DNA from: a virus
Lineage: Duplodnaviria > Caudoviricetes
Length of the DNA stretch: 64,000 nucleotides
Strand: one strand, 5' to 3'
Virus record (IMG/VR): IMGVR_UViG_3300020576_004352
Coordinates: 1 to 64,000 of that record
Positions 1,470 to 57,834 of the stretch are shown piece after piece. Within the stretch, counting starts at the first letter, position 1. Every line of letters begins with the position of its first letter. Both the position numbers and the translations under genes were made by a program. Under the pieces are notes generated by a model that worked only from the letters and a program-made list of their open reading frames with translations, did not search any database and was not told the DNA's origin.

Positions 1470-1498
1470 TTGACAAATAAAATGTTATAGGCTAGGGT
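1470..1498 (+). promoter_or_regulatory. sigma70-type promoter, conserved-spacer family
   Basis: TTGACA-17-TAGGGT, spacer AATAAAATGTTATAGGC; RBS CTGGAGAC before ATG 1530. Confidence 0.8.
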
Positions 1499-1529
1499 GC
1501 AGAGGTTGGAAACTAACTGGAGACGTACA

Positions 1530-1709
1530 ATGGCTAAAGCAGACCTTACTTTTACATGGACACCTGATAAAGCAACCGAAACCACGGTGAAGATCGTGGA
1601 AGGATTTGAGAACTATCCGGCATTGGATCGGCTTGACTTCCTTACCGACTGTCGGCGTGTAATTGAAAAACTTTACAGGCAGGCTTCAAAAGATTTCAGC
1701 GGGGAGTAG
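1530..1709 (+). CDS. small early hypothetical protein
   Basis: ATG after GGAG RBS, directly behind promoter. Confidence 0.65.
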   Translation: MAKADLTFTWTPDKATETTVKIVEGFENYPALDRLDFLTDCRRVIEKLYRQASKDFSGE

Positions 1710-3910: not shown

Positions 3911-4461
3911 TCAGTTGTACGAGACGTGGCACCTTCTTAGCGGGAGTAGGGAGTTGATCGCCCTGAGGCCCGTGACAGAGGCGAAGCGGCTAGGTTGAAC
4001 GGCGTGCCAACTAGTATGCCTAGCGCCCGATCCCAAGGGTAAAACATGTTTCTGCTTGCAAAAGGACGGCTCCAGTAGCCGAAAGACAGGTGTGATACCT
4101 GTTGAGCTGGCCCGGTAGGGAGCTGCGCCTCTACATGGGAGTATGCCGCTGAAAGGTTGGTATCGCAGCACCGAGTGGTGTAACAGAGCACATACCGCAT
4201 AGACCCGTTGCCTTTTCTATCGGTAACCATTCCGATGTTAGGGAAGATGATAGGCGGTAAGGTGGGGGAGAATTGCCCCTCTCGGTTAAAGGTTTCTTAT
4301 TAGGCGGGGGCTTATATATAAGTGCCCTTGCCTATGTGGCCGGTGGAAGCCGGTTACCAGTCTGGCTATGGGTGGTGTAAGGATAACACGACTGGCATCA
4401 CCTCTTGGGGAGGCTGACTAGCTGGTAGATGCGGGGTTCAAACCCCTGCCCCTAGCCGGGC
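3911..4461 (+). ncRNA. candidate large structured ncRNA ending in a tRNA-like domain
   Basis: No credible + strand ORF; many hairpins (3989-4024, 4067-4081, 4086-4102, 4219-4236, 4301-4334, 4336-4357) then D-arm and T-arm. Confidence 0.6.
4360..4461 (+). ncRNA. tRNA-like element with 26-nt expanded anticodon loop and extended acceptor stem
   Basis: D-arm GTGT-AAGGATA-ACAC, T-arm CGGGG-TTCAAAC-CCCTG, flanks GTCTGGCTA/TAGCCGGGC pair; no CCA. Confidence 0.6.
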
Positions 4462-14950: not shown

Positions 14951-14979
14951 TTGACCAATAAAGTGTTAGGGTTTAGGGT
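14951..14979 (+). promoter_or_regulatory. promoter, conserved-spacer family
   Basis: TTGACC-AATAAAGTGTTAGGGTT-TAGGGT. Confidence 0.75.
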
Positions 14980-15028
14980 GTTTTTGTTGGCGGGTGGTTG
15001 GCACCCGTGAAAAACCGGAGACTGGACT

Positions 15029-15154
15029 ATGCCTGAAGATTTCGATTTCACCTTTGATTGCAGCCTGAACGAAGAAATGGCCCTGATGCTGGCCGAACAG
15101 GATGATGACGGCCTTGAGGCCTTTGGGTATGAGGAAGAAGTCGCGTATGCCTAA
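15029..15154 (+). CDS. 41-aa highly acidic peptide
   Basis: GGAGACT RBS, first ORF after promoter; 14 D/E and no K/R. Confidence 0.6.
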   Translation: MPEDFDFTFDCSLNEEMALMLAEQDDDGLEAFGYEEEVAYA

Positions 15155-15419: not shown

Positions 15420-15879
15420 AAATAAGTTAAAAGAAAAGCAAGACGTATCGAGCTATCGTGGGAAGGCCCCGTCGATGAACCCCTACCTGATGGGCGATGA
15501 CCTATATCTCTGGCAGGAGCTGGCCGCTACCTTTAAGCCGAACGCGGATAAAGAGGAGGTGCTTGAATGCTTAATTGCATATGGGGACACCTGCCCGGAA
15601 GACGAAGAAGAGAAATTCGAGGATCGTGTGGCTGCCCGCCTCTTGGAGATAGCGGAGGAAGAACAGGCCTCCCATGAAGACGACAAAAAAGAGACCATGC
15701 TGTCTCTGGCGGAGCGGATAGACACTGTGCTTCACCTTCGGCTGACCGAGGGTGATTTCAGGATGTGTAAACGACTGCTTGAGCCTGTATTCCGGGAGTT
15801 CGGGGTTGGCGAGCCCCTACCAGTTAAGAAGACCCCTAAAAATAAAAAAGCACTTGACAAAAAAACTGTTAGGGGTTAG
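15406..15879 (+). CDS. hypothetical acidic protein
   Basis: GGAGG RBS. Confidence 0.6.
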   Translation: MVSSKNKLKEKQDVSSYRGKAPSMNPYLMGDDLYLWQELAATFKPNADKEEVLECLIAYGDTCPEDEEEKFEDRVAARLLEIAEEEQASHEDDKKETMLSLAERIDTVLHLRLTEGDFRMCKRLLEPVFREFGVGEPLPVKKTPKNKKALDKKTVRG

Positions 15880-15882
15880 GGT
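15854..15882 (+). promoter_or_regulatory. promoter, conserved-spacer family
   Basis: TTGACA-AAAAAACTGTTAGGGGT-TAGGGT. Confidence 0.8.
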
Positions 15883-15915
15883 GTGGGCGTTGGATACTTT
15901 TACTGGAGACGCACC

Positions 15916-16230
15916 ATGCCTACACAAATCACCATTGACCCTCTGAAGATGTTTAACGTGGTCGACCCTTGGGGCGAAGAGCACGAGGTCGAGGCTGACA
16001 CCCTTAAGGAAGCGCAGACCTACTGCGATGACACATTCTACGAGCGGATGTGCGATGCCGACGAGGACACATCAGGTGAGCACGAGCAGGACGGCTGGGT
16101 TATCGTTGAGCTCCACCTCACAGAGGATGACCCTGTAGAACTCGCCCGGCACTCCTATACCGCGACATTCGAGGATTACGGCAGCGATTACGAGCAGCAT
16201 AATACGCTGTGGCACGGATGCGCACTTTGA
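15916..16230 (+). CDS. highly acidic early protein, 104 aa
   Basis: CTGGAGAC RBS; about a quarter D/E by hand count. Confidence 0.7.
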   Translation: MPTQITIDPLKMFNVVDPWGEEHEVEADTLKEAQTYCDDTFYERMCDADEDTSGEHEQDGWVIVELHLTEDDPVELARHSYTATFEDYGSDYEQHNTLWHGCAL

Positions 16231-16241
16231 GGGAGGCTACT

Positions 16242-17939
16242 ATGTCAGAGAATACAGACGAAGACCTCATCGAGCTGCTCCCGCAATCTACCTTTGTGCG
16301 GGACTTTGCGAAGGCGTGGCACGACGAAACGGTCAGCTGCGCAGAAGAAGTGGATGCTGATGATTTTCGCGTGGGCGTTAATAACTCCGCGAAGGGGGAG
16401 AGCGATACCGCGTTCACTGTGACCCATCGAGGTGACCAGCTGCTATGCCGTGTTGTGGTGTACGAACAGAATGGCCGCTGCGGTGTCCTCTTCTGTAACA
16501 CGGGGCCGGTGGAGGCCGTTGAGACTTCCTTTTACAATTTTTGAACCGGGGTTCACATATGCCTGAAAACATTACGCTGTATTTCACAGAGGATTACAAA
16601 GCCAAGGTAACCTCTGTGGAGGTTGAGGCTTTGCCCTTGGTGTGCGCGGGGATACCGTTTCATGTGCATGTGTGGCTGCATCCGCTGACCGGGAAGCCCA
16701 TAAAGGGGGAGCGCAACATCTCCCGCAACGGTGCGCCTCTGCCTTGGATACTTAAGCAGGGCGATGATGCCAAGCAGTTTATTATAGACCGGGTACGCGG
16801 CACCTATGGGGGCCAGCCGAGCCCTTATGGCACCATCTCGATCAATAGGTTTATCTCCGACTTGGTGGCGTGGCAGAGGGTCTACCAGCGCGTATCCGGC
16901 AGGACTGATCGCTTTTATGATAGAGAGCGTGACTATCTGATTTCTGTTGTTAAATACAAAGGCAAAGCCTGATGCGCTTTACAGATGGGAGACTTAAGCA
17001 TGAGTAATGCACTGACTATGCGTGCCCGACTTTCTGATGCGATCCGCGAGTACGAAGACAAGTTTGCGGCTTTGGAAAACGAGCTTGTTCTATTTGGGCA
17101 GGCGGGTGATCGGCTCAAGAGTGCTGTAACCATATTGGGGCAGTGGGAAAGCGCGGCTGCGTAAGTTAATTAATAGTATTGCCTGCTGCACAGCCTCGAT
17201 TGGGCATGTAGCGGAAGAGTGTTGGTGAATTGCCACAAAGAACAGAAAGGCAGCGTAATCATGTACATAGACAAGTTTGCTAGGGAATACTTGCAGAAGG
17301 TGTGTCCTAAAAGTCAGGCCCGCGCTTTTTATTATTTTGACAACCCAACAAAAACAGCGGAGCTTTACCTGAACGTGCTGCGGCTGGACGACCCCCGCGA
17401 GCAGGTGACGCGCAAGATAATCTTGCCGTCTAACGTGGAGCTACCTCCGGGCTTAGACCTTAAGCAGACGTGCCGCGATATCCTTGCTGAAGCAGGACAC
17501 AAAATCACCAACACCGACGAGGGACTGAACGATGAGTAAGGAAGCCACATTTGACCCCGACTACCTGCATGGCGTTATGCGCGAGTTTTATATCCGTCGC
17601 CTCGTGGCCGGTGGCGCAAAGCGTGAGCGCCTGCAAATGCCTCCTCATCTGGTTGACCGGCACTGCGCCCAGTACAGTGTCACCCTTCGTACCTTACTAG
17701 AGGTGCTGGCAGACCGTGGCGACCTCGACCCGGCAAAGCTGCGCCCCACAGATGAAGACAAGATCCGGGCCCCGGTGCCCGACGAGACAGATACGATTAA
17801 GCCTGTGAAAGCTCCTGCCCCGAAAGTGCAGAAGCCCGAGCAGCTTAAGACGGCGGTACTTGATGAAGCGTTACCGGCCCCTACCGCCCCGGTCATTAGC
17901 GTTCCCCGAGTGCGAGAACGGACGCGCAGCAGGAGTTAA
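16242..17939 (+). CDS. run of hypothetical ORFs (16242..16544, ~16559..16972, 17000..17164, ~17261..17539, 17532..17939)
   Basis: Tightly packed + strand ORFs, several with GGAG-type RBS; no recognised domains. Confidence 0.55.
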
Positions 17940-18795: not shown

Positions 18796-19311
18796 ATGTC
18801 AAAGAGGTTCATGATATCTGATCTGCATTTCGATCATATCAAACTGGTGGAGTACCGAGGCTTCACCAGCGTAGCAGATATGAACGACGCACTGATCGCG
18901 GGATGGTGTAGCCGGGTTACTCCAGCAGACAAGGTGTACGTGCTGGGCGACGTGGCCCTGAACACCACGCCTGAGAGCCTTGATCGGCATCTCTCCATGT
19001 TGCCGGGCACCAAGGTACTCATCATGGGTAACCACGACACCTCCCCGGCCAAAATCGAAGTGTATCAGCGGCACTTTATTTCCCTGCTTGGCTGCATGGA
19101 GTATAAAGGCTGCATCCTTTCTCACATACCGGTGCATCCGGCCCAGCTGAGCCGCTTCCGGTTTAACATCCACGGGCATGTTCATAAAAACAGCCTGCGG
19201 ATCAATGATGACCTGTCCGAAGAGCTTGATATGCGATATATTAACGTGAGCTGTGAAGCTCTGAATTATGTACCGCAGACCTTCGAGGAGTTGATCGCTA
19301 ACAGGGGATAA
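18796..19311 (+). CDS. calcineurin-like metallophosphoesterase
   Basis: SDLHFDH, LGDV, GNHD, SH.P, NIHGHVH. Confidence 0.9.
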   Translation: MSKRFMISDLHFDHIKLVEYRGFTSVADMNDALIAGWCSRVTPADKVYVLGDVALNTTPESLDRHLSMLPGTKVLIMGNHDTSPAKIEVYQRHFISLLGCMEYKGCILSHIPVHPAQLSRFRFNIHGHVHKNSLRINDDLSEELDMRYINVSCEALNYVPQTFEELIANRG

Positions 19312-19314
19312 ATA

Positions 19315-19674
19315 ATGAGCAACGAGAAGCTGGAGAAACAGAAGCGTCTACGTGATCTAATGCATAAGGAAATACCACAGGCCCGGCAACAGGTGTCCAT
19401 ATCACAGCGTGGTCTTGCTGACCTCGAGCGGGAGGGACGCCAGCTGAGTATCGAGTTGGAGAGCGGCGGAGCCAGCGGGGAGGTGCGTGTATCAGACCAT
19501 GCGGTGCTGCGATATATTGAGCGCGTGCTGAAGTTTGATATAGATGCCGTCCGCAGGCAGATACTCACCCCGGAGCGGATTGGCTACATCAAGGCGGGCG
19601 CGTGTAGGATAAACGTGGACGGCACCACCTTTGTGGTCAGGGACAAGACCATAGTAACGACGCTGGATCGGTAG
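19315..19674 (+). CDS. hypothetical protein with VSDHAVLRYIER motif
   Basis: Coiled-coil N-terminus plus a C-terminal motif recurrent in phage proteins. Confidence 0.65.
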   Translation: MSNEKLEKQKRLRDLMHKEIPQARQQVSISQRGLADLEREGRQLSIELESGGASGEVRVSDHAVLRYIERVLKFDIDAVRRQILTPERIGYIKAGACRINVDGTTFVVRDKTIVTTLDR

Positions 19675-19739
19675 GCTGCAATACCCTACTTGACACAGGA
19701 AATGAAATGGGGTAGTCCTGCCATATCGGAGGATATCCT

Positions 19740-19925
19740 ATGTTGGCAGGCTACCATCTCACCATGAAATTCCAGAAGAACGAAGAGCTTGAAGAGTGCA
19801 GCTTCACCTGCGCCACTCAGCGTCAGGCAGACGAGCGACAGCTCAACGAGTTGATAGTGCATGAGCAGCTCGGCTTTATATGTGTGGAGGCCAAGCTGGC
19901 CCGTGACCGGTCAAGAGGAGCTTGA
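19740..19925 (+). CDS. small hypothetical protein
   Basis: GGAGG RBS; weak promoter-like TTGACA at 19690. Confidence 0.5.
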   Translation: MLAGYHLTMKFQKNEELEECSFTCATQRQADERQLNELIVHEQLGFICVEAKLARDRSRGA

Positions 19926-20078
19926 CAAATGGGCATAACTACGGTATAGTAACAGAATAGAAAGCCGCATAGGCCACTGAAGCACTCGACAGCGCGTGGA
20001 TTAACCTCCCCCCAAAGTCTCCAGCGGTGCTTTACGTGAGGCCAGAGGACGCCAACATCCTCTGGCCTTTTCTCTTTT
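19922..20078 (+). ncRNA. candidate ~120-nt small RNA with own promoter and terminator
   Basis: TTGACA-17-TATAGT (19922-19950), no ORF, CU-rich ACCTCCCCCCAAAGTCTCCAG core, terminator 20039-20078. Confidence 0.6.
20039..20078 (+). terminator. intrinsic terminator
   Basis: AGGCCAGAGGA/TCCTCTGGCCT 11-bp stem plus TTTCTCTTTT. Confidence 0.85.
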
Positions 20079-20084
20079 CTGCGC

Positions 20085-20113
20085 TTGACAAATAAACTGT
20101 TATATGCTAATAA
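20085..20113 (+). promoter_or_regulatory. promoter, conserved-spacer family
   Basis: TTGACA-AATAAACTGTTATATGC-TAATAA. Confidence 0.7.
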
Positions 20114-20134
20114 ACCCGCGTTGGGGACTGGCGC

Positions 20135-20650
20135 ATGAGCTGTATTATCTACCTACCACGCAATTTCTCTGCACTTGTCTCTGTTGACGATTTTAAGCGG
20201 CTCTCTGCCGTGAAGTGGGGTGTGAACCTAGACCGGGCCAAGAAGGCATATGCATGCAGGAAGGTGAGCGGCAAACGCATTTATATGCACCGCGAGATTA
20301 CCAACTGCCCGCCCGGACTGGTGGTTGACCACATCAATGGAGACACGCTCGATAACCGCCGCACCAATCTTCGCATATGTACCGAGCGGCAAAACCTCTA
20401 TAACTGCCTGACAAACAATCTGTCCGGTTATAAAGGGGTAGGGCTGATAGGCACTGGCGGATATCGAGCCCGGATACAGCATCACGAGTACGGAGAGATA
20501 TACCTTGGACGTTATGAGAACCTACAGGACGCAGCGGATGCCTATGACAGAGCTGCGATTTTGTTGTGGGGCGAGTATGCTTGGTTAAACTGCCCTTTGC
20601 TGAGAGAGGAAAAGATACATGAGCCAGAACCCGAAATCCCCTTCCCCTAA
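20135..20650 (+). CDS. HNH homing endonuclease with AP2 domain
   Basis: YMHREI, VDHINGD.LDNRR.NLR, SGYKGV, YLG.Y...AA.AYD.AA. Confidence 0.92.
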   Translation: MSCIIYLPRNFSALVSVDDFKRLSAVKWGVNLDRAKKAYACRKVSGKRIYMHREITNCPPGLVVDHINGDTLDNRRTNLRICTERQNLYNCLTNNLSGYKGVGLIGTGGYRARIQHHEYGEIYLGRYENLQDAADAYDRAAILLWGEYAWLNCPLLREEKIHEPEPEIPFP

Positions 20651-21958: not shown

Positions 21959-24778
21959 ATGCCTGTACGTGAGCGCACCCGCAAGATCAATCTTTCAGAT
22001 GAAGAGCCCGTGCGGGTAAGCCGCCGTAGGTCGGCCCGTGTTACTCTTTTTGGGGGCGTGGCAAAGGCTTCTGATAAAGAGGACAGCCCCCTTTACGCAG
22101 CCCTGAAGACGTATGAGAGTACGCAGATTGCCGATCCGTTCAGCCAAAGCTATCAGGTGAGCTCTCCGCTGGGCGTCAACAGCGTGATTGCACCCCCCTT
22201 CAATCCCTACGCCCTTATGCGCCTGCCCAACGAGAACAACACCCTCCGCCAGTGCATTGATGCGATGGTTATCAATATCGAAGCAATGGGGCACCGCTTT
22301 GAGTATGTGGGCCCGGAGGGCGGTGAAGAGAGCAAGGAGGCTCAGGCGGAGCTTACCCGACTTGAGGCCCTGACAGCGCAGCCCAACGGCGAATATGGCC
22401 TGCTTGAGTTTCGGGAGCGCGTGCGTCGTGATCTTGAGACGTTTGGATATCGCTACATTGAGATTTGCCGGGGCACATTCAATCGTCAGATCGTTTCGAT
22501 CTACCATGTTCCTGCGCACAGCATGCGCTTGACCGGCATGGATAATGAGGAGACAGAGGTTTCGATCTGGCTGCCTCGCGACGGCAAGATGGTTATGCAG
22601 AAGATCAAGCGCCGCTTTCGCCGGTACGTGCAGGAGGTCGGATCGCACCGCACCTACTTTAAGGAGTACGGCGATCCCCGCCCGATCAGCTCAAAGACGG
22701 GACAGATAACTCCCGGAGCCGCTGCGGAGGATATGGCCACTGAAATCCACTTTGGCACGCTCTACACCCCCGGCAATCTGTATGGGCTGCCACGCTGGAT
22801 TAACCAGCTCCCCGCCGTGCTGGGCAGCCGTGAAAGCGAAATGACCAACTTGAGCTTCTTCCGGGATAATGCCATTCCGGCTATGGCTATCATGGTATCG
22901 GGCGGGCATTTGACTGCGGACAGCATTGACGAGATTGAAGAGCATATCAACGCGGTGCGTGGTCGCCAGTCTTCACATCGCGTCATGGTGCTCGAGGCCG
23001 AAGGGTCTGAGAAGGCAGCTGGCCCGGACAAATCAATCTCAGCCCCCAAGGTAGAGATGAAGTCGATGCTGCATGACCGGCAGAACGACGCCCTATTCCA
23101 AGAGTACGATAAGAACAACCAGACGAAGGTGCGATCTTCTTTCCGTATCCCCCCGATCTTCATTGGTCGCAGCGAGGACATGACTTACGCATGCTATGAC
23201 GATAAAACGGAGGTTTTGACTAATAAGGGCTGGCAACGGTATGACCAGTTTAAGAAGGGTACTAAAGTAGCGGCATATGACCAATCTACTGGAGAGGTTA
23301 AGTTTGAAGTACCCGAGAACGGGAAGCCATTCATCTATGACTTTAAAGGTGAGTTATTCCGTATCAAGAACGGTAATAATGATATGGCGGTTACACCGGG
23401 ACACCGGATGTTATTTGCCAACTACTACCGTGACAACTGGCGGGTAGAGACAGTAGAGCATATGGTGCAAAGCCGTATGGCTGTGAAGAACACCGCTACT
23501 TTTGAGAGCAAGGAGCCTCTTATCTCTTTCGAGCCTCCGCATGAATTACTGAAAGGTGGAACACTAGCTCCCACACAGGCTAAGGTGGCCCCGGTTAGCG
23601 CGGACTTATTCCTTCAGTTTCTCGGTCTATTTGTCTCAGAGGGTTGTACAATACAGGATGCTCAGGGGTGCAGAACCACTGAGATTGTTATCGGCCAGCT
23701 TCGTGGGGATAAAAAAGCCAAGGGCGATGTTCTGGAACAGATTACTGCGTGTATGCAGGAATTTGAGAAGGCCGGATATACCGTGCGGTATAATTACCCT
23801 CAATCGCCCCCCACAAAGCCGGATATGGTTTATCACACTATCCGACATAAGGGTTTTAGAAACTGGCTAAGAAAAAATACTGGTACACATGCCATAAATA
23901 AGCGACTGCCTAATGAAGTTATGCACCTGCCGAATGGCCAGATGCGTGTACTCTTTGACGCGCTTATGGCGGGAGACGGAACCTATGATATTCGTCAAGG
24001 CCGTACCAGCATGTCTTACTCAACACAGTCAGAGGTACTGGCTGGGCAGGTGCAGGAAATCGCGCTACGCTTGGGTTACACTGCTAAGATAATTGAAGGG
24101 ACACGTTGCTTACGTGTTCAAATGAGTGAAGGCAGAGACCGTGTTCGCGTTCTTAAGACAGATATAACGCGGGAACCTTACACGGGTAAGGTATGGTGTT
24201 TCCGGGTATCGACAGGATTATTTGTCACCCGCCGTAACGGGTATGTGGCTATCCAAGGAAACACGGCGGAGGCGTCGCTCACTATGGCAGAGGCGCAGGT
24301 GTTCGGCCCGGAGCGTAATAAAATTGATGACCTGTTCAATCAGGTGGTTCTCTCGGACGTTGAAGGCCGGATGCCGATCTACTGGAAATTCCGGTCTAAC
24401 CCGCCCCGCGTATCAAATCCCAAGGACGTGCTCGATGCCCTTAAAACGCTGGATGCGCTGGGTGCCCTGACGCCCAATGTGGCGATTGGCATCGCTAACG
24501 AGATGTTTGATCTCAACATCGAGACGGTCAAAGAGGACTGGGGCGATTTCCCATTCGAGATCGTGAAGATGCTGGCGCAGAAGGGGCAGCTCAAGGGGCT
24601 CGATAGCCTTATCGCAGCCTCCACAGACGCGCTGGACGCGCAGGGGGACACTGCTCCTGCAGACACACAGGTTGACCCGGCCACGGGTGAGGAGATCAAA
24701 GGTCTTGTGAAGCAGGCATTGAACGGGCTGAAGGGGAAGAATAACAATGTGCGTAAAGTGTCAAAAACTCGCAAGTGA
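21959..24778 (+). CDS. portal protein (PBSX-like) interrupted by an intein
   Basis: Y.EI.R...HVPA..MR, YGLPRW, FFRDNAIPAM.I.VSGG, FRIPPIFIG; position between terminase and head genes. Confidence 0.88.
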   Translation: MPVRERTRKINLSDEEPVRVSRRRSARVTLFGGVAKASDKEDSPLYAALKTYESTQIADPFSQSYQVSSPLGVNSVIAPPFNPYALMRLPNENNTLRQCIDAMVINIEAMGHRFEYVGPEGGEESKEAQAELTRLEALTAQPNGEYGLLEFRERVRRDLETFGYRYIEICRGTFNRQIVSIYHVPAHSMRLTGMDNEETEVSIWLPRDGKMVMQKIKRRFRRYVQEVGSHRTYFKEYGDPRPISSKTGQITPGAAAEDMATEIHFGTLYTPGNLYGLPRWINQLPAVLGSRESEMTNLSFFRDNAIPAMAIMVSGGHLTADSIDEIEEHINAVRGRQSSHRVMVLEAEGSEKAAGPDKSISAPKVEMKSMLHDRQNDALFQEYDKNNQTKVRSSFRIPPIFIGRSEDMTYACYDDKTEVLTNKGWQRYDQFKKGTKVAAYDQSTGEVKFEVPENGKPFIYDFKGELFRIKNGNNDMAVTPGHRMLFANYYRDNWRVETVEHMVQSRMAVKNTATFESKEPLISFEPPHELLKGGTLAPTQAKVAPVSADLFLQFLGLFVSEGCTIQDAQGCRTTEIVIGQLRGDKKAKGDVLEQITACMQEFEKAGYTVRYNYPQSPPTKPDMVYHTIRHKGFRNWLRKNTGTHAINKRLPNEVMHLPNGQMRVLFDALMAGDGTYDIRQGRTSMSYSTQSEVLAGQVQEIALRLGYTAKIIEGTRCLRVQMSEGRDRVRVLKTDITREPYTGKVWCFRVSTGLFVTRRNGYVAIQGNTAEASLTMAEAQVFGPERNKIDDLFNQVVLSDVEGRMPIYWKFRSNPPRVSNPKDVLDALKTLDALGALTPNVAIGIANEMFDLNIETVKEDWGDFPFEIVKMLAQKGQLKGLDSLIAASTDALDAQGDTAPADTQVDPATGEEIKGLVKQALNGLKGKNNNVRKVSKTRK
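23192..24262 (+). mobile_element. 357-aa intein with LAGLIDADG-type endonuclease
   Basis: YA|CYDDKTEVLT...FVTRRNG..IQGN|T; LGLFVSEG and FDALMAGDG blocks; lower GC than flanks. Confidence 0.9.
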
Positions 24779-26116: not shown

Positions 26117-26179
26117 CTCTTGTTGTTTCTGTAAAACGAGTTTATTTTAGTAGAAAATGAACCGGGGTTCAAACCGACC

Positions 26180-55659: not shown

Positions 55660-56007
55660 TTGGTTGCCCGTGAAGCCGCCCGGATGGGTGCCAAGGAGCG
55701 CATGAGGGCGCAGGCGGAGGCTGCTAGTATACCGGTGGGGCGGCAGACTATTCAAGGCACTGTCAGAAGCCTTAGGGAAGGTTACTATCGTATACCGAGC
55801 GCGTGGAATAGGCAAGTCATGAAGATGACGTTGGTACGCGAGGACGGAGTGACCTACTATGGCAGCGTGCCGAGGGCCCTGCATCCGAGGGTGGGGGACA
55901 TAGTGGCACTGTGCGCCACGGTCACCTTTAAAAGACCGGGCTTCGCCTATTTTTCAAGGCCCACTAAACCCACGATTGTGCAGGAGGTTGAGCGGAATAT
56001 AACTTGA
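55660..56007 (+). CDS. hypothetical OB-fold-like protein (start uncertain)
   Basis: YYGSVP, GD.V...ATV, F..RPTK. Confidence 0.45.
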   Translation: MVAREAARMGAKERMRAQAEAASIPVGRQTIQGTVRSLREGYYRIPSAWNRQVMKMTLVREDGVTYYGSVPRALHPRVGDIVALCATVTFKRPGFAYFSRPTKPTIVQEVERNIT

Positions 56008-56032
56008 CAAAAAAACTGTTATATAGTAGGGG
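56004..56032 (+). promoter_or_regulatory. promoter, conserved-spacer family
   Basis: TTGACA-AAAAAACTGTTATATAG-TAGGGG; CTGGAGACT RBS. Confidence 0.8.
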
Positions 56033-56067
56033 TTACACCCTTGGCGAAACTTAACTGGAGACTGAAC

Positions 56068-57726
56068 ATGACCAATGCTGAGCTGACAAGCAAAGAAAAG
56101 TTTATTGAGGATATTTCCACACTGGTGAACGCCGCCATTGGCGTTATCATTGTGCGCACCCGTGAGCCTTATGAGGTTATGACGGTGCTGCGAGAATACT
56201 CCCTGAGCACCAAGTGGCAGTTCAATCGCTGGAGCATTACTTCAGGCTTCCTGAAGTTTCCGTTGACCGATGCGACTGCGGAGCCGGTTAAGGTTGATAA
56301 TACACAGCCTCCCGGTGCCGCGATTAAATACGTTGGCGACAATCAGGACGGCAACAACTCAAGACAGATTTACGCGATGATGTGGAGCCACTTTTATAGC
56401 AAGCGCGACAATCCCATGCCTGAGTTTATTCAGCACATGGCAGACTACACAAAGCTCTTTGCCAATAAGCCAAAGCGCCTGATTATGGTGGTGCCGCCAG
56501 AATACCAAGTGCCTCCCGAGCTGCAGGACAGCGTGGTCATTGTTGACACTGACCTGCCGACGCAGCCTGAGCTGCGGGAGCTGTACGACGATGTGATGGA
56601 GCAGATTAACACGATGGGGAAGAAGGCCCTCACCTACACAGAGGAAGAGGTTGACCGCATCACTGCCGCAGGCGCTGGCATGACGCTCACGGAGTTCGAT
56701 AACACACTGAGCCGGGCCCTGCGCAAATTCCGCAAAGAGCTGCCAGATATCGCAGTTGATACCTTCGTGCGCGAAATCAGCAAAACGAAAGCGGAGATTG
56801 TAAAGCGCAGTGAGGTGCTCGAGCTTATGCCTCTCGGCAACATGGACGAGGTGGGTGGGCTTGAAAACCTGAAGGAGTGGATCAGCCTGAGACGGCACGC
56901 TTACGATAAGGAGGCCCGTGATTTTGGGGTAGATCGTCCGCGAGGCGTGGCACTGCTTGGAGCCCCCGGAACGGGTAAGAGCTTGTGCGCGAAGGCCATT
57001 GCTCACGAGCTTGGCCTCCCTCTCATCCGCTTTGATATCAGCCGTATCTTCGGCAGCCTTGTCGGACAGTCAGAAGGTCGGGTGCGGGAAGCCCTCAAGC
57101 TGTGCGATGCCCTTGCGCCCTGCACGGTTCTCCTAGACGAGATCGACAAAGCCTTCGACGTGAACAGCGGGGGCGGAGACAGTGGAGTGGGCAAGCGGGT
57201 GCTTGGCGCGGTGCTCACGCACATGCAGGAGAGCGACAAGGATATCTTCTGGGTGATGACTGCAAACCGTGTCGGTGGCCTTCCGCCAGAGCTCCTGCGC
57301 AAGGGTCGGCTGGACGAGGTGTTCTCGGTAACCACTCCCTCCGAGAAGGAGCGTGAGGCTATCTTCAAAATCCATTTGAAGAAGCGCAAGCAGGCTCCCG
57401 ACCTGAAGGGGCTGGATAAGGCTGTGGAGGCGTCTAACCGCTTTGTGGGTGCTGAGATTGAGGCGGCAGTGGCCGAGGCGGTGCTGCATGCCTACTCGAA
57501 GAACAAGGCATTGACCGCCGAGATGCTGGTGGAGCAGTTCAGGGATACCAAACCTCTCTCCGAAGCACACAAAGAGCAGTTCAGAATGATGGAGGATTGG
57601 GCTGCCGATAACGCGAGAGCCTCCAGCAAAGAGACGAGGACGCGCACTCGTGAGCGTAACCGGGTCGCGGATACCAGCTCCCGCAGCAGTGCCAGCGCGG
57701 CGCTTACTGACGATCTGGACGGGTGA
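56068..57726 (+). CDS. Ycf46-like AAA+ ATPase
   Basis: VGGLENLKEW, Walker A GAPGTGKS, Walker B LLDEIDK, ELLRKGRLDE, GAEIE; degenerate N-terminal AAA domain. Confidence 0.88.
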   Translation: MTNAELTSKEKFIEDISTLVNAAIGVIIVRTREPYEVMTVLREYSLSTKWQFNRWSITSGFLKFPLTDATAEPVKVDNTQPPGAAIKYVGDNQDGNNSRQIYAMMWSHFYSKRDNPMPEFIQHMADYTKLFANKPKRLIMVVPPEYQVPPELQDSVVIVDTDLPTQPELRELYDDVMEQINTMGKKALTYTEEEVDRITAAGAGMTLTEFDNTLSRALRKFRKELPDIAVDTFVREISKTKAEIVKRSEVLELMPLGNMDEVGGLENLKEWISLRRHAYDKEARDFGVDRPRGVALLGAPGTGKSLCAKAIAHELGLPLIRFDISRIFGSLVGQSEGRVREALKLCDALAPCTVLLDEIDKAFDVNSGGGDSGVGKRVLGAVLTHMQESDKDIFWVMTANRVGGLPPELLRKGRLDEVFSVTTPSEKEREAIFKIHLKKRKQAPDLKGLDKAVEASNRFVGAEIEAAVAEAVLHAYSKNKALTAEMLVEQFRDTKPLSEAHKEQFRMMEDWAADNARASSKETRTRTRERNRVADTSSRSSASAALTDDLDG

Positions 57727-57778: not shown

Positions 57779-57807
57779 TTGACAAATAAACTGTTAGGGT
57801 ATAGGGT
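57779..57807 (+). promoter_or_regulatory. promoter, conserved-spacer family
   Basis: TTGACA-AATAAACTGTTAGGGTA-TAGGGT. Confidence 0.8.
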
Positions 57808-57834
57808 ACAGGCGTTGGAATTTGGAGACGCATC

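What the first reader, a model, noticed from the sequence alone, without database searches (positions are those of the whole stretch)
19922..20078. Candidate phage sRNA antisense to the shared RBS of promoter-proximal early genes
Seen: a self-contained unit with promoter TTGACA-17-TATAGT, about 120 nt without an ORF, and an 11-bp terminator. Its core AGTCTCCAG (20016-20024) is the reverse complement of CTGGAGACT. This extended RBS occurs at the first gene behind most conserved-spacer promoters (1517, 15017, 15903, 56055 with 9/9, 57823) and also at 16988, 44519 and 59286. An adjacent ACCTCCCCCC is a second anti-SD-like tract. Known: alphaproteobacterial sRNAs such as AbcR use exposed anti-SD loops. 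Inference: one RNA could shut off an early regulon through a shared RBS signature.
Basis: partly seen in the sequence, partly recalled or inferred. Interest (0 to 1): 0.75.

Follow-up and report, generated by a model that had tools for sequence, protein, structure and literature searches.

The report
Phage small RNA matching early-gene ribosome sites
An uncultured 88-kb phage carries a small non-coding RNA gene whose exposed loop is the exact complement of the unusual ribosome-binding sequence shared by its promoter-proximal genes; a distant relative keeps the RNA with a matching change in both partners, so it is probably a translational repressor of a phage gene set.

Summary
Bases 19922-20078 are a compact unit with the best sigma-70-type promoter and best intrinsic terminator in the 10 kb scanned. 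It has no ORF and no Rfam match, and its fold is stabler than shuffles (z -3.8).

The shared ribosome-binding motif is CTGGAGAC, 8 nt; only site 56055 matches 9/9. All five exact copies in the 87.9-kb genome lie 12-13 nt before an ATG. The antisense 7-mer occurs once in the genome, in this RNA's large loop.

Pairing is specific to that gene set (mean best helix -12.4 kcal/mol; 1 of 300 composition-preserving loop shuffles as good). It is no better than shuffles for the other 123 start regions.

The only relative found (IMG/VR contig, proteins 31-66% identical) has a homologous RNA between the same two genes. Its loop, CCUCCAGCU, is a 9-bp perfect complement of that phage's own promoter-proximal ribosome site, AGCUGGAGG. 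The terminator loop GCCAACA is identical in both although the stems differ.

My reading is a trans-acting, ribosome-site-blocking phage sRNA. It works like P1/P7 c4 RNA but is not homologous to it.

No transcript data exist, there are only two sequences, pairing is modest (net -5 to -10 kcal/mol), and early timing is assumed.

The parts
19922..19950 (+). Promoter of the RNA: TTGACA, 17 nt, TATAGT. The -35 hexamer contains the TGA stop of the upstream 61-aa ORF. It lacks the conserved AAWAAACTGTTA spacer of the phage's promoter family. The inferred start is near 19957.
19957..20078 (+). Predicted ~115-120-nt non-coding RNA. It has a small 5' hairpin (GCC-GCAUA-GGC, 19964-19974), stem-loop 2 and a terminator stem-loop 3. 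Fold energy is -44.2 kcal/mol, z -3.76 against shuffles. There is no ORF and no Rfam match.
19975..20038 (+). Stem-loop 2. The arms 19975-19985 and 20027-20038 (core GAAGCAC/GUGCUUU) close a ~41-nt loop that carries both C-rich tracts.
20004..20013 (+). ACCUCCCCCC tract. It contains ACCUCC, the core of the 16S rRNA anti-Shine-Dalgarno sequence. Unpaired probability is 0.74-0.96. ACCUCC is also present in the relative's loop.
20016..20024 (+). Seed AGUCUCCAG, the complement of CUGGAGAC(U). It is the only GTCTCCA on the + strand of the whole genome. Opening cost is 2.5 kcal/mol.
20038..20078 (+). Intrinsic terminator: a 12-bp stem, the loop CGCCAACA (20050-20057) and a U-rich tail. The loop heptamer GCCAACA is identical in the relative although the stems differ. 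It is complementary to the GTTGG box at the predicted 5' end of the family mRNAs.
19740..19925 (+). Upstream 61-aa ORF with its own promoter at 19690. It is the orthologue of the relative's 55-aa ORF, whose ribosome site is the 9-bp partner of the relative's RNA loop. Here the start AUGUUGGC (19740-19747) is an 8-bp complement of the terminator loop, but that match is at chance level genome-wide.
20085..20134 (+). Family promoter and short 5' UTR of the HNH endonuclease gene (20135-20650). CGUUGGGGACU (20119-20129) is the best predicted partner of the seed: 11 bp including 2 G-U, -16.6 kcal/mol.
1470..1532 (+). Family promoter, GTTGG box (1505-1509) and ribosome site CTGGAGAC (1517-1524) before the ATG at 1530. 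This is a predicted target (8 bp).
14951..15031 (+). Family promoter. TGTTGGCG (14985-14992) is an 8-bp complement of the terminator loop. The ribosome site GGAGACT (15017-15023) lies before the ATG at 15029. This is a predicted target.
15854..15918 (+). Family promoter, GTTGG box (15889-15893) and CTGGAGAC (15903-15910) before the ATG at 15916. This is a predicted target (8 bp).
56004..56070 (+). Family promoter and CTGGAGACT (56055-56063) before the AAA+ ATPase gene (ATG 56068). This is a predicted target: 9 bp, net -10.3 kcal/mol.
57779..57837 (+). Family promoter, GTTGG box (57814-57818) and TTGGAGAC (57822-57829) before the ATG at 57835. This is a predicted target: 8 bp including one G-U.

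Best explanation
Bases 19957-20078 encode a trans-acting, base-pairing small RNA of the phage. It is transcribed from its own near-consensus host-type promoter and ended by an intrinsic terminator.

Its large loop presents GUCUCCAG. This pairs with the extended ribosome-binding sequence CUGGAGAC, 12-13 nt upstream of the start codon of the first gene behind a family of dispersed phage promoters. These include the neighbouring HNH endonuclease gene, two very acidic small proteins, an AAA+ ATPase and, beyond the window, a UvsX-like recombinase gene. Pairing would occlude the ribosome site and lower translation of this gene set as the RNA accumulates.

The terminator loop (CGCCAACA) may add a second contact with the GUUGG box at the 5' end of the same mRNAs.

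Shown: the anatomy, the specificity of the complementarity, the accessibility of the seed, and conservation with a matched change in one relative.

Inferred: transcription, repression, timing and the second contact.
For: - Anatomy: the best promoter and best terminator in the 10 kb scanned, no ORF, and a fold with z -3.76.
- Motif placement: all 5 exact CTGGAGAC copies are ribosome sites, and the antisense 7-mer is unique to this RNA in 87.9 kb.
- Ranking: among 132 start regions, the nine family genes rank 1, 2, 4, 7, 8, 9, 16, 24 and 29 for best helix with the loop.
- Shuffle test: family mean -12.4 against -5.1 +/- 1.7 kcal/mol in 300 shuffles, with 1 as good. Other genes give -6.2 against -5.8, with 79 of 300 as good.
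- Energetics: seed opening costs 2.5 kcal/mol and net energies are -5 to -10 kcal/mol.
- Synteny: relative L009 has the same gene order (small ORF, ORF-free gap, HNH gene, RNase H, portal), with proteins 31-66% identical.
- Relative's RNA: the L009 gap folds with z -5.0 into a hairpin whose 8-nt loop is CCUCCAGC, plus a terminator.
- Matched change: with the adjoining U, that loop is a 9-bp perfect complement of the ribosome site AGCUGGAGG of L009's promoter-proximal gene. It scores -16.2 against a next best of -7.4 among 30 start regions. In 2000 shuffles, 54 matched any site as well and 1 matched that same site.
- Terminator loop: GCCAACA is invariant while 3 stem pairs changed on both sides.
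- Second contact: the terminator loop pairs with family 5' UTRs better than shuffles, -7.4 against -3.9 +/- 1.6, with 6 of 500 as good.
- Uniqueness: this is the only intergenic gap in the genome that holds all four motifs.
Against: - There are no expression data. The phage is uncultured and its host is unknown.
- Only two homologous sequences exist, so covariation statistics are weak. Terminator stem covariation was matched by 76 of 500 shuffles.
- The seed is short (8 bp) and partly involved in a weak internal helix (unpaired probability 0.3-0.67).
- The family 5' UTRs are paralogous copies of one module, so nine targets count as roughly one independent match, and that match was noticed post hoc.
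- In L009 the matched ribosome site belongs to the small ORF just upstream of the RNA. Its orthologue in the window has only a 5-bp match to the loop, so the target sets of the two phages may differ.
- L009 has no strong promoter of its own for the RNA, and its HNH gene looks leaderless.
- The GUUGG contact depends on an unmapped transcription start and has no clear partner in the 21 kb of L009 that is available.
Confidence: 0.5

Rival explanations
1. It is a real phage small RNA, but its physiological targets are local or host-encoded. Candidates are the small ORF it follows (feedback within one operon, as a 3'-UTR-derived RNA), the adjacent HNH nuclease gene, or host mRNAs. On this view the match to the dispersed gene set is secondary.
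For: - In L009 the perfect 9-bp partner is the ribosome site of the small ORF immediately upstream, and no strong separate promoter is seen.
- In the window the single best partner is the neighbouring HNH 5' UTR: 11 bp, -16.6 kcal/mol.
- The small ORF's start codon region is an 8-bp complement of the terminator loop.
- The ACCUCC tract would fit many host ribosome sites.
Against: - In the window the small ORF's ribosome site pairs over only 5 bp with the loop.
- The 8-bp terminator-loop match is at chance level (166 of 500 shuffles do as well somewhere).
- L009's HNH gene has no leader to pair with.
- The exact seed complement occurs only at ribosome sites of the dispersed set.
Confidence: 0.2
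2. It has no RNA function. The region would be only a transcriptional insulator: a terminator ending the upstream operon before the nuclease gene, plus a fortuitous promoter. The complementarity would be a post-hoc coincidence in a C-rich spacer.
For: - A terminator directly before a separately promoted HNH nuclease gene makes sense as insulation and is kept in L009.
- The motif with up to one mismatch is at chance in the window.
- The seed match is only 8 bp.
- The family UTRs are one paralogous module, so there is effectively one match.
Against: - An insulator does not explain a near-consensus promoter aimed at the terminator.
- It does not explain a conserved second hairpin whose loop keeps ACCUCC and CUCCAGC while its stem sequence is entirely different.
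- It does not explain an invariant terminator-loop heptamer with changed stems, or the matched seed and ribosome-site change in L009.
- Shuffle tests give 1/300 and 54/2000.
Confidence: 0.2
3. It is a cis-acting translational lock on the homing-type HNH endonuclease. In transcripts that read through the terminator, the upstream AGUCUCCAGCG would fold onto the HNH ribosome-site region. Only transcripts from the HNH gene's own promoter would then be translated, as described for phage T4 I-TevI and other T4 late genes (my own knowledge).
For: The strongest complementarity of the seed in the whole genome is with the HNH 5' UTR about 100 nt downstream: 11 bp including 2 G-U. The RNA and HNH adjacency is conserved in L009.
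Against: - A strong terminator and a promoter lie between the two partners.
- In L009 the HNH gene starts at or next to the transcription start and has no complementary leader.
- This view does not explain the perfect matches to dispersed ribosome sites, or to L009's small-ORF site.
Confidence: 0.1

Closest known systems
c4 antisense RNA of phages P1 and P7 (immI region)
   Same: It is a phage-encoded, ~77-nt structured RNA that acts in trans on phage mRNA. Short complementary sequences presented in loops cover the ribosome-binding region and block translation. Loop and target sequences differ together between P1 and P7, giving heteroimmunity (review PMC12197685; details of a'/b' loops from my own knowledge). 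The matched change between the window and L009 has the same logic.
   Different: - There is no sequence or structure homology: no Rfam family, C4 included, matches at E up to 10.
- c4 controls one operon (icd-ant) from which it is itself processed. Here the complement is shared by about nine dispersed transcription units.
- The RNA has its own promoter in the window phage.
- Nothing shows that this phage is temperate.
Phage T4 RegB endoribonuclease and RegA translational repressor
   Same: The functional outcome is analogous. Both give post-transcriptional shut-off of a set of early phage mRNAs recognised through their ribosome-binding regions. RegB cuts within GGAG of early Shine-Dalgarno sequences (T4 review PMC3014915 listed; mechanism from my own knowledge).
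   Different: Those are proteins. Here recognition would be by RNA-RNA pairing with an extended motif (CUGGAGAC). There is no evidence here for cleavage or for timing.
Bacterial sRNAs with C-rich anti-Shine-Dalgarno loops (alphaproteobacterial AbcR1/2, alpha-r14/CcsR 'cuckoo' RNAs, staphylococcal RsaE)
   Same: An exposed CCUCC-type loop in a hairpin, followed by an intrinsic terminator, that pairs with G-rich ribosome sites of many mRNAs (my own knowledge). The closest cultured kin of this phage infect alphaproteobacteria.
   Different: - There is no Rfam match to any of these families.
- It is phage-encoded.
- Specificity comes from the flanking bases (CU..AC) of a phage-specific 5' UTR module, not from generic SD pairing.
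Recently described phage sRNAs that act on host or phage mRNAs (e.g. the lambda-type sRNA acting on host replication, bioRxiv 10.1101/2024.10.31.621285; prophage sRNAs of EHEC, PMC13502914)
   Same: They are phage-encoded base-pairing regulators with their own promoter and terminator (titles and abstracts).
   Different: Those act mainly on host genes or on single phage genes. A single sRNA matched to a shared 5' UTR module of a dispersed phage gene set was not found in the searches I made. That is not an exhaustive search.

Membership tests
Trans-acting base-pairing sRNA (ribosome-site occluding) | Independent transcription unit: promoter and intrinsic terminator, non-coding | tested here: met
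   TTGACA-17-TATAGT (11/12), a 12-bp terminator with a U tail, and no ORF of 25 aa or more.
Trans-acting base-pairing sRNA (ribosome-site occluding) | A discrete stable transcript is made | not testable with these tools
   No expression data exist: the phage is uncultured and the host is unknown.
Trans-acting base-pairing sRNA (ribosome-site occluding) | Accessible seed complementary to target translation-initiation regions beyond chance | tested here: met
   Seed opening costs 2.5 kcal/mol. Family genes rank at the top of 132 start regions. Only 1 of 300 shuffles is as good. Net energies are -5 to -10 kcal/mol.
Trans-acting base-pairing sRNA (ribosome-site occluding) | Conservation of structure and seed, with seed and target covariation in relatives | tested here: inconclusive
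   One relative (L009) keeps the hairpin-loop and terminator architecture and shows a matched seed and ribosome-site change. With n = 2, stem covariation is not significant.
P1/P7 c4 antisense RNA (Rfam C4 family) | Sequence and structure homology to the C4 covariance model | tested here: not met
   No Rfam 15 match at the gathering score or at E up to 10 in 19700-20300.
P1/P7 c4 antisense RNA (Rfam C4 family) | Two loop sequences complementary to two sites around the target ribosome site | tested here: inconclusive
   The loop 2 to ribosome-site match is clear. The terminator-loop to GUUGG-box match is 5-8 bp and enriched (6/500). It depends on an unmapped start site and is not seen in L009.
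Alphaproteobacterial AbcR / alpha-r14-type anti-SD sRNAs | Match to the family covariance models | tested here: not met
   No Rfam match. Only the general design (C-rich loop plus terminator) is shared.
Cis-acting ribosome-site sequestration of a homing endonuclease gene (T4 I-TevI type) | An upstream complement and the ribosome site lie on one transcript, and the arrangement is conserved in relatives | tested here: not met
   An 11-bp complement to the HNH 5' UTR exists. However, a terminator and a promoter intervene, and L009's HNH gene has no such leader.
tRNA, tmRNA or other catalogued structured RNA | Detection by ARAGORN or Rfam | tested here: not met
   ARAGORN finds genes only at 4366-4457 and 59197-59269. 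Rfam finds only the tRNA at 59198.

The most novel reading that the evidence does not exclude
A virulent-type phage uses one two-loop small RNA as the RNA counterpart of T4 RegA/RegB. The loop GUCUCCAG and the terminator loop GCCAACA would clamp two conserved boxes (the 5'-terminal GUUGG and the ribosome site CUGGAGAC) of a mobile promoter-UTR module. This would coordinately switch off a dispersed early gene set. Seed and box sequences would co-evolve between phages, so the RNA could also act as a specificity or immunity determinant against related phages.
Probability: 0.25. Interest if true: 0.75.

Novelty: new variant of a known kind. Interest (0 to 1): 0.58.

Why it matters
Regulatory RNAs of lytic-type phages that act on the phage's own genes are barely known. 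Coordinated early-gene shut-off is understood mainly through proteins (T4 RegA and RegB).

Here a single RNA gene and a shared 5' UTR signature would define a whole post-transcriptional gene set that can be read from sequence alone. One relative suggests that seed and target co-evolve.

If this is confirmed, it offers a simple rule for finding such circuits in metagenomic phages: look for loop sequences antisense to recurrent promoter-proximal ribosome sites. It would also give a compact, orthogonal RNA and UTR pair for synthetic control.

Tried and rejected
- Rfam at gathering and at permissive thresholds gave only chance microRNA hits on the terminator.
- DNA search of 50,697 phage records found no match.
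- Protein searches of neighbouring genes in the phage records found only distant kin.
- IMG/VR searches by seed sequence, by promoter-family pattern and by a three-box pattern gave chance hits plus L009's contig only.
- Protein-guided locus searches in IMG/VR, GTDB genomes and JGI metagenomes found only L009, plus L008, a 1.26-kb contig in which a different gene follows the 119-aa gene and there is no such unit.
The contigs of the closer relatives P0002 and P0003 (78% and 76% identical neighbouring protein) could therefore not be read.
- RNAduplex-type hybrid prediction with long arms produced artefactual multi-loop duplexes. I dropped it in favour of contiguous helices plus opening energies.
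- A first shuffle script timed out.
- I considered the idea that the RNA arose as an inverted copy of a family 5' UTR. Similarity does not extend beyond the 9-mer.
- A general anti-SD 'sponge' role is not supported, because pairing with the other 123 start regions is no better than shuffles.
- The 8-bp match of the terminator loop to the small ORF's start codon is at chance genome-wide.
- Distant cultured kin (Rhizobium phage L338C, Aeromonas phage HJ05) lack the motif pair.

Full report
**Context**

The window is the first 64 kb of a single 87,856-bp phage contig with 54% G+C. By my own simple gene calls, 132 + strand genes cover 92% of it. There are no close relatives among 50,697 phage records. 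The nearest cultured kin by portal and AAA+ ATPase are Rhizobium phages L338C and RHph_I4, Aeromonas phage HJ05, Agrobacterium phage JP1 and Rhodobacter phages, at 34-49% identity. An alphaproteobacterial-type host is therefore plausible but unknown.

**Anatomy**

- The promoter is TTGACA (19922-19927), 17 nt, TATAGT (19945-19950). At 11/12 it is the best sigma-70-type match in 14-24 kb.
- The hairpin at 20038-20069 (12 bp, loop CGCCAACA) with the tail TTTTCTCTTTT is the best terminator match in the same 10 kb.
- The -35 hexamer contains the stop codon of a 61-aa ORF (19740-19925) that has its own promoter at 19690.
- Six bases after the T tract, a further promoter (20085) drives an HNH-AP2 endonuclease gene at 20135-20650.
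- Between about 19957 and 20078 there is no ORF of 25 aa or more on either strand, no tRNA and no Rfam family.
- The RNA folds at -44.2 kcal/mol, z = -3.76. The fold has a small 5' hairpin. A stem (core GAAGCAC/GUGCUUU) closes a ~41-nt loop carrying ACCUCCCCCC and AGUCUCCAG, and the terminator follows.
- Unpaired probabilities are 0.74-0.96 for the first tract and 0.3-0.67 for the seed. Opening the seed costs 2.5 kcal/mol.

**The target motif**

The genome holds about a dozen promoters that share (gc)acTTGACAAAWAAACTGTTA. One class (1470, 14951, 15854, 20085, 56004, 57779, 66895, and more loosely 76123 and 78381) continues in a fixed pattern. It has a TAGGGT-like -10, then a GTTGG box exactly where transcription should start. 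A short leader follows, ending in CTGGAGAC(G) 4-5 nt before the ATG. Earlier notes of this scan had described the promoter family.

TGGAGAC occurs 11 times on the + strand, and six of these are ribosome sites 4-5 nt before an ATG. All five CTGGAGAC copies are ribosome sites. On the - strand of the whole genome the 7-mer occurs once, in the RNA's loop.

The case therefore rests on position and strand, not on count.

**Specificity**

I took the best contiguous helix (Watson-Crick plus G-U, Turner energies) between the loop (19986-20026) and positions -25 to +6 of all 132 starts.

- The nine family genes rank 1, 2, 4, 7, 8, 9, 16, 24 and 29.
- The top hits are the HNH leader (11 bp including 2 G-U, -16.6 kcal/mol), the AAA+ ATPase gene (9 bp, -14.1) and three 8-bp sites (-12.5).
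- A UvsX-like recombinase gene at 73055 carries the same site without the family promoter.
- In 300 composition-preserving shuffles of the loop, the family mean is -5.1 +/- 1.7 against the real -12.4, and 1 shuffle is as good.
- For the other 123 genes the real loop is no better than shuffles: -6.2 against -5.8, with 79 of 300 as good.

The RNA is therefore not a generic anti-SD sequence. Its specificity lies in the bases flanking GGAG. With opening costs on both partners, net energies are -5 to -10 kcal/mol. That is modest but within the range of working seeds.

The terminator loop pairs with the GTTGG box over 5-8 bp. The family mean is -7.4 against -3.9 +/- 1.6, with 6 of 500 shuffles as good. 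Its best single matches are unremarkable genome-wide.

**Comparative evidence**

All collection scans together yielded one informative relative: IMG/VR contig 3300014205_000771 (L009, 21.4 kb, portal 66% identical). It is syntenic. The order is an endolysin-like gene, a 106-aa gene, a promoter, a 55-aa ORF (31% identical to the 61-aa ORF), a 188-nt ORF-free gap, the HNH gene (55%), RNase H and portal.

- The gap is not alignable at sequence level, but it folds with z = -5.0.
- The fold has a 12-bp hairpin whose 8-nt loop is CCUCCAGC, followed by a terminator with loop AAGCCAACA.
- Both phages therefore keep ACCUCC and CUCCAGC in loop 2, and GCCAACA in the terminator loop. The stems are different sequences. 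In the terminator, 3 pairs changed on both sides, though this is not significant with two sequences.
- L009's loop, with the adjoining U, is a perfect 9-bp complement of AGCUGGAGG, the ribosome site of the first gene behind L009's promoter. It scores -16.2 against a next best of -7.4 among 30 start regions. In 2000 shuffles, 54 matched any site as well and 1 matched that same site.
- The difference GGAGAC versus GGAGG in the ribosome sites is thus mirrored by GUCUCC versus CCUCC in the loops.

Limits of this comparison:
- The L009 fragment is mostly structural genes, so its early promoters cannot be surveyed.
- Its matched gene is the small ORF next to the RNA, whose orthologue in the window pairs only weakly.
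- L009 has no strong promoter for the RNA, so the RNA may be 3'-UTR-derived there.
- A more distant 1.26-kb contig (L008) has a different gene at the equivalent place.

**Interpretation**

The most economical reading is a phage-encoded, trans-acting RNA that occludes the ribosome sites of a defined set of promoter-proximal phage genes. A possible auxiliary loop contact lies at the mRNA 5' end.

It works like the c4 RNA of P1/P7, which uses loop-presented complements around a ribosome site that differ together between phages. However, it fails the homology test for that family and for the alphaproteobacterial anti-SD sRNAs. In outcome it resembles T4 RegA/RegB control of early mRNAs.

The rivals are purely local or host targets, a mere insulator, and a cis lock on the HNH gene. 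They are not excluded, but each leaves part of the conserved pattern unexplained.

Transcription, direction of the effect and timing are inferred. The literature searches found no described case of one phage sRNA matched to a shared 5' UTR module of a dispersed phage gene set. That search was limited to open-access text.

Noticed in passing
window 1470, 14951, 15854, 20085, 56004, 57779 (and 66895, 76123, 78381 beyond the window); 55111 (and 82241, 86327): The promoter family has a conserved spacer (TTGACAAAWAAACTGTTA) and falls into two classes. One has a TAGGGT-type -10, a GTTGG box at the expected start and a CTGGAGAC ribosome site. The other has a TATATA -10 followed by a GGGGCTGCTGCCCC leader hairpin. 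The RNA's own promoter shares only TTGACAAAT.
   Followed up: partly
window 21959-24778: The portal gene encodes 939 aa. It matches other portals in two pieces that cover only 46-57% of it, and it has a middle segment hitting an unrelated PHROG. This is consistent with an intein-like insert, which others in this scan had already noted.
   Followed up: no
window ~16540-16558 and ~26155-26179; genome ~73030-73050; L009 727-741: The palindrome GAACC(G/C)GGGTTCA recurs just upstream of several start codons. It is also present in the distant relative L009 at the end of its endolysin-like gene.
   Followed up: no
L009 1450-1486: The HNH endonuclease gene of the relative appears leaderless. TTGACA-17-TTTAGT is followed by the ATG 5 nt after the -10, with no Shine-Dalgarno sequence. 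The window's orthologue has an ~15-nt leader.
   Followed up: partly
L048 (Rhizobium phage L338C, KF614509.1) 194-300: A short promoter-to-terminator unit sits directly before the promoter of the AAA+ ATPase gene. It runs TTGACAT, then TACAAC, then ~60 nt, then an AGCCGTTTGATC/GATCAAACGGCT hairpin with a T run, and has no obvious ORF. Small non-coding units between early operons may be common in this phage group.
   Followed up: no
window 4366-4457 and 59197-59269: ARAGORN calls an over-long tRNA-Val-like gene (92 nt) and a tRNA with an undefined two-base anticodon. Only the second reaches the Rfam tRNA threshold.
   Followed up: no
genome 86621-86648 and 87024-87051 (beyond the window): Two genes (starts 86646 and 87049) have identical 25-nt upstream sequences. 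This is consistent with the recent duplication noted elsewhere in this scan.
   Followed up: no
window 19315-19674 and 18796-19311: The phosphoesterase gene and the 119-aa gene that precede the small ORF in the window are absent at the same place in L009. They are adjacent in the L008 contig, where the 119-aa homologue is 63% identical. The region around the RNA is therefore a hotspot of gene gain and loss, while the small ORF, RNA and HNH block is kept.
   Followed up: partly
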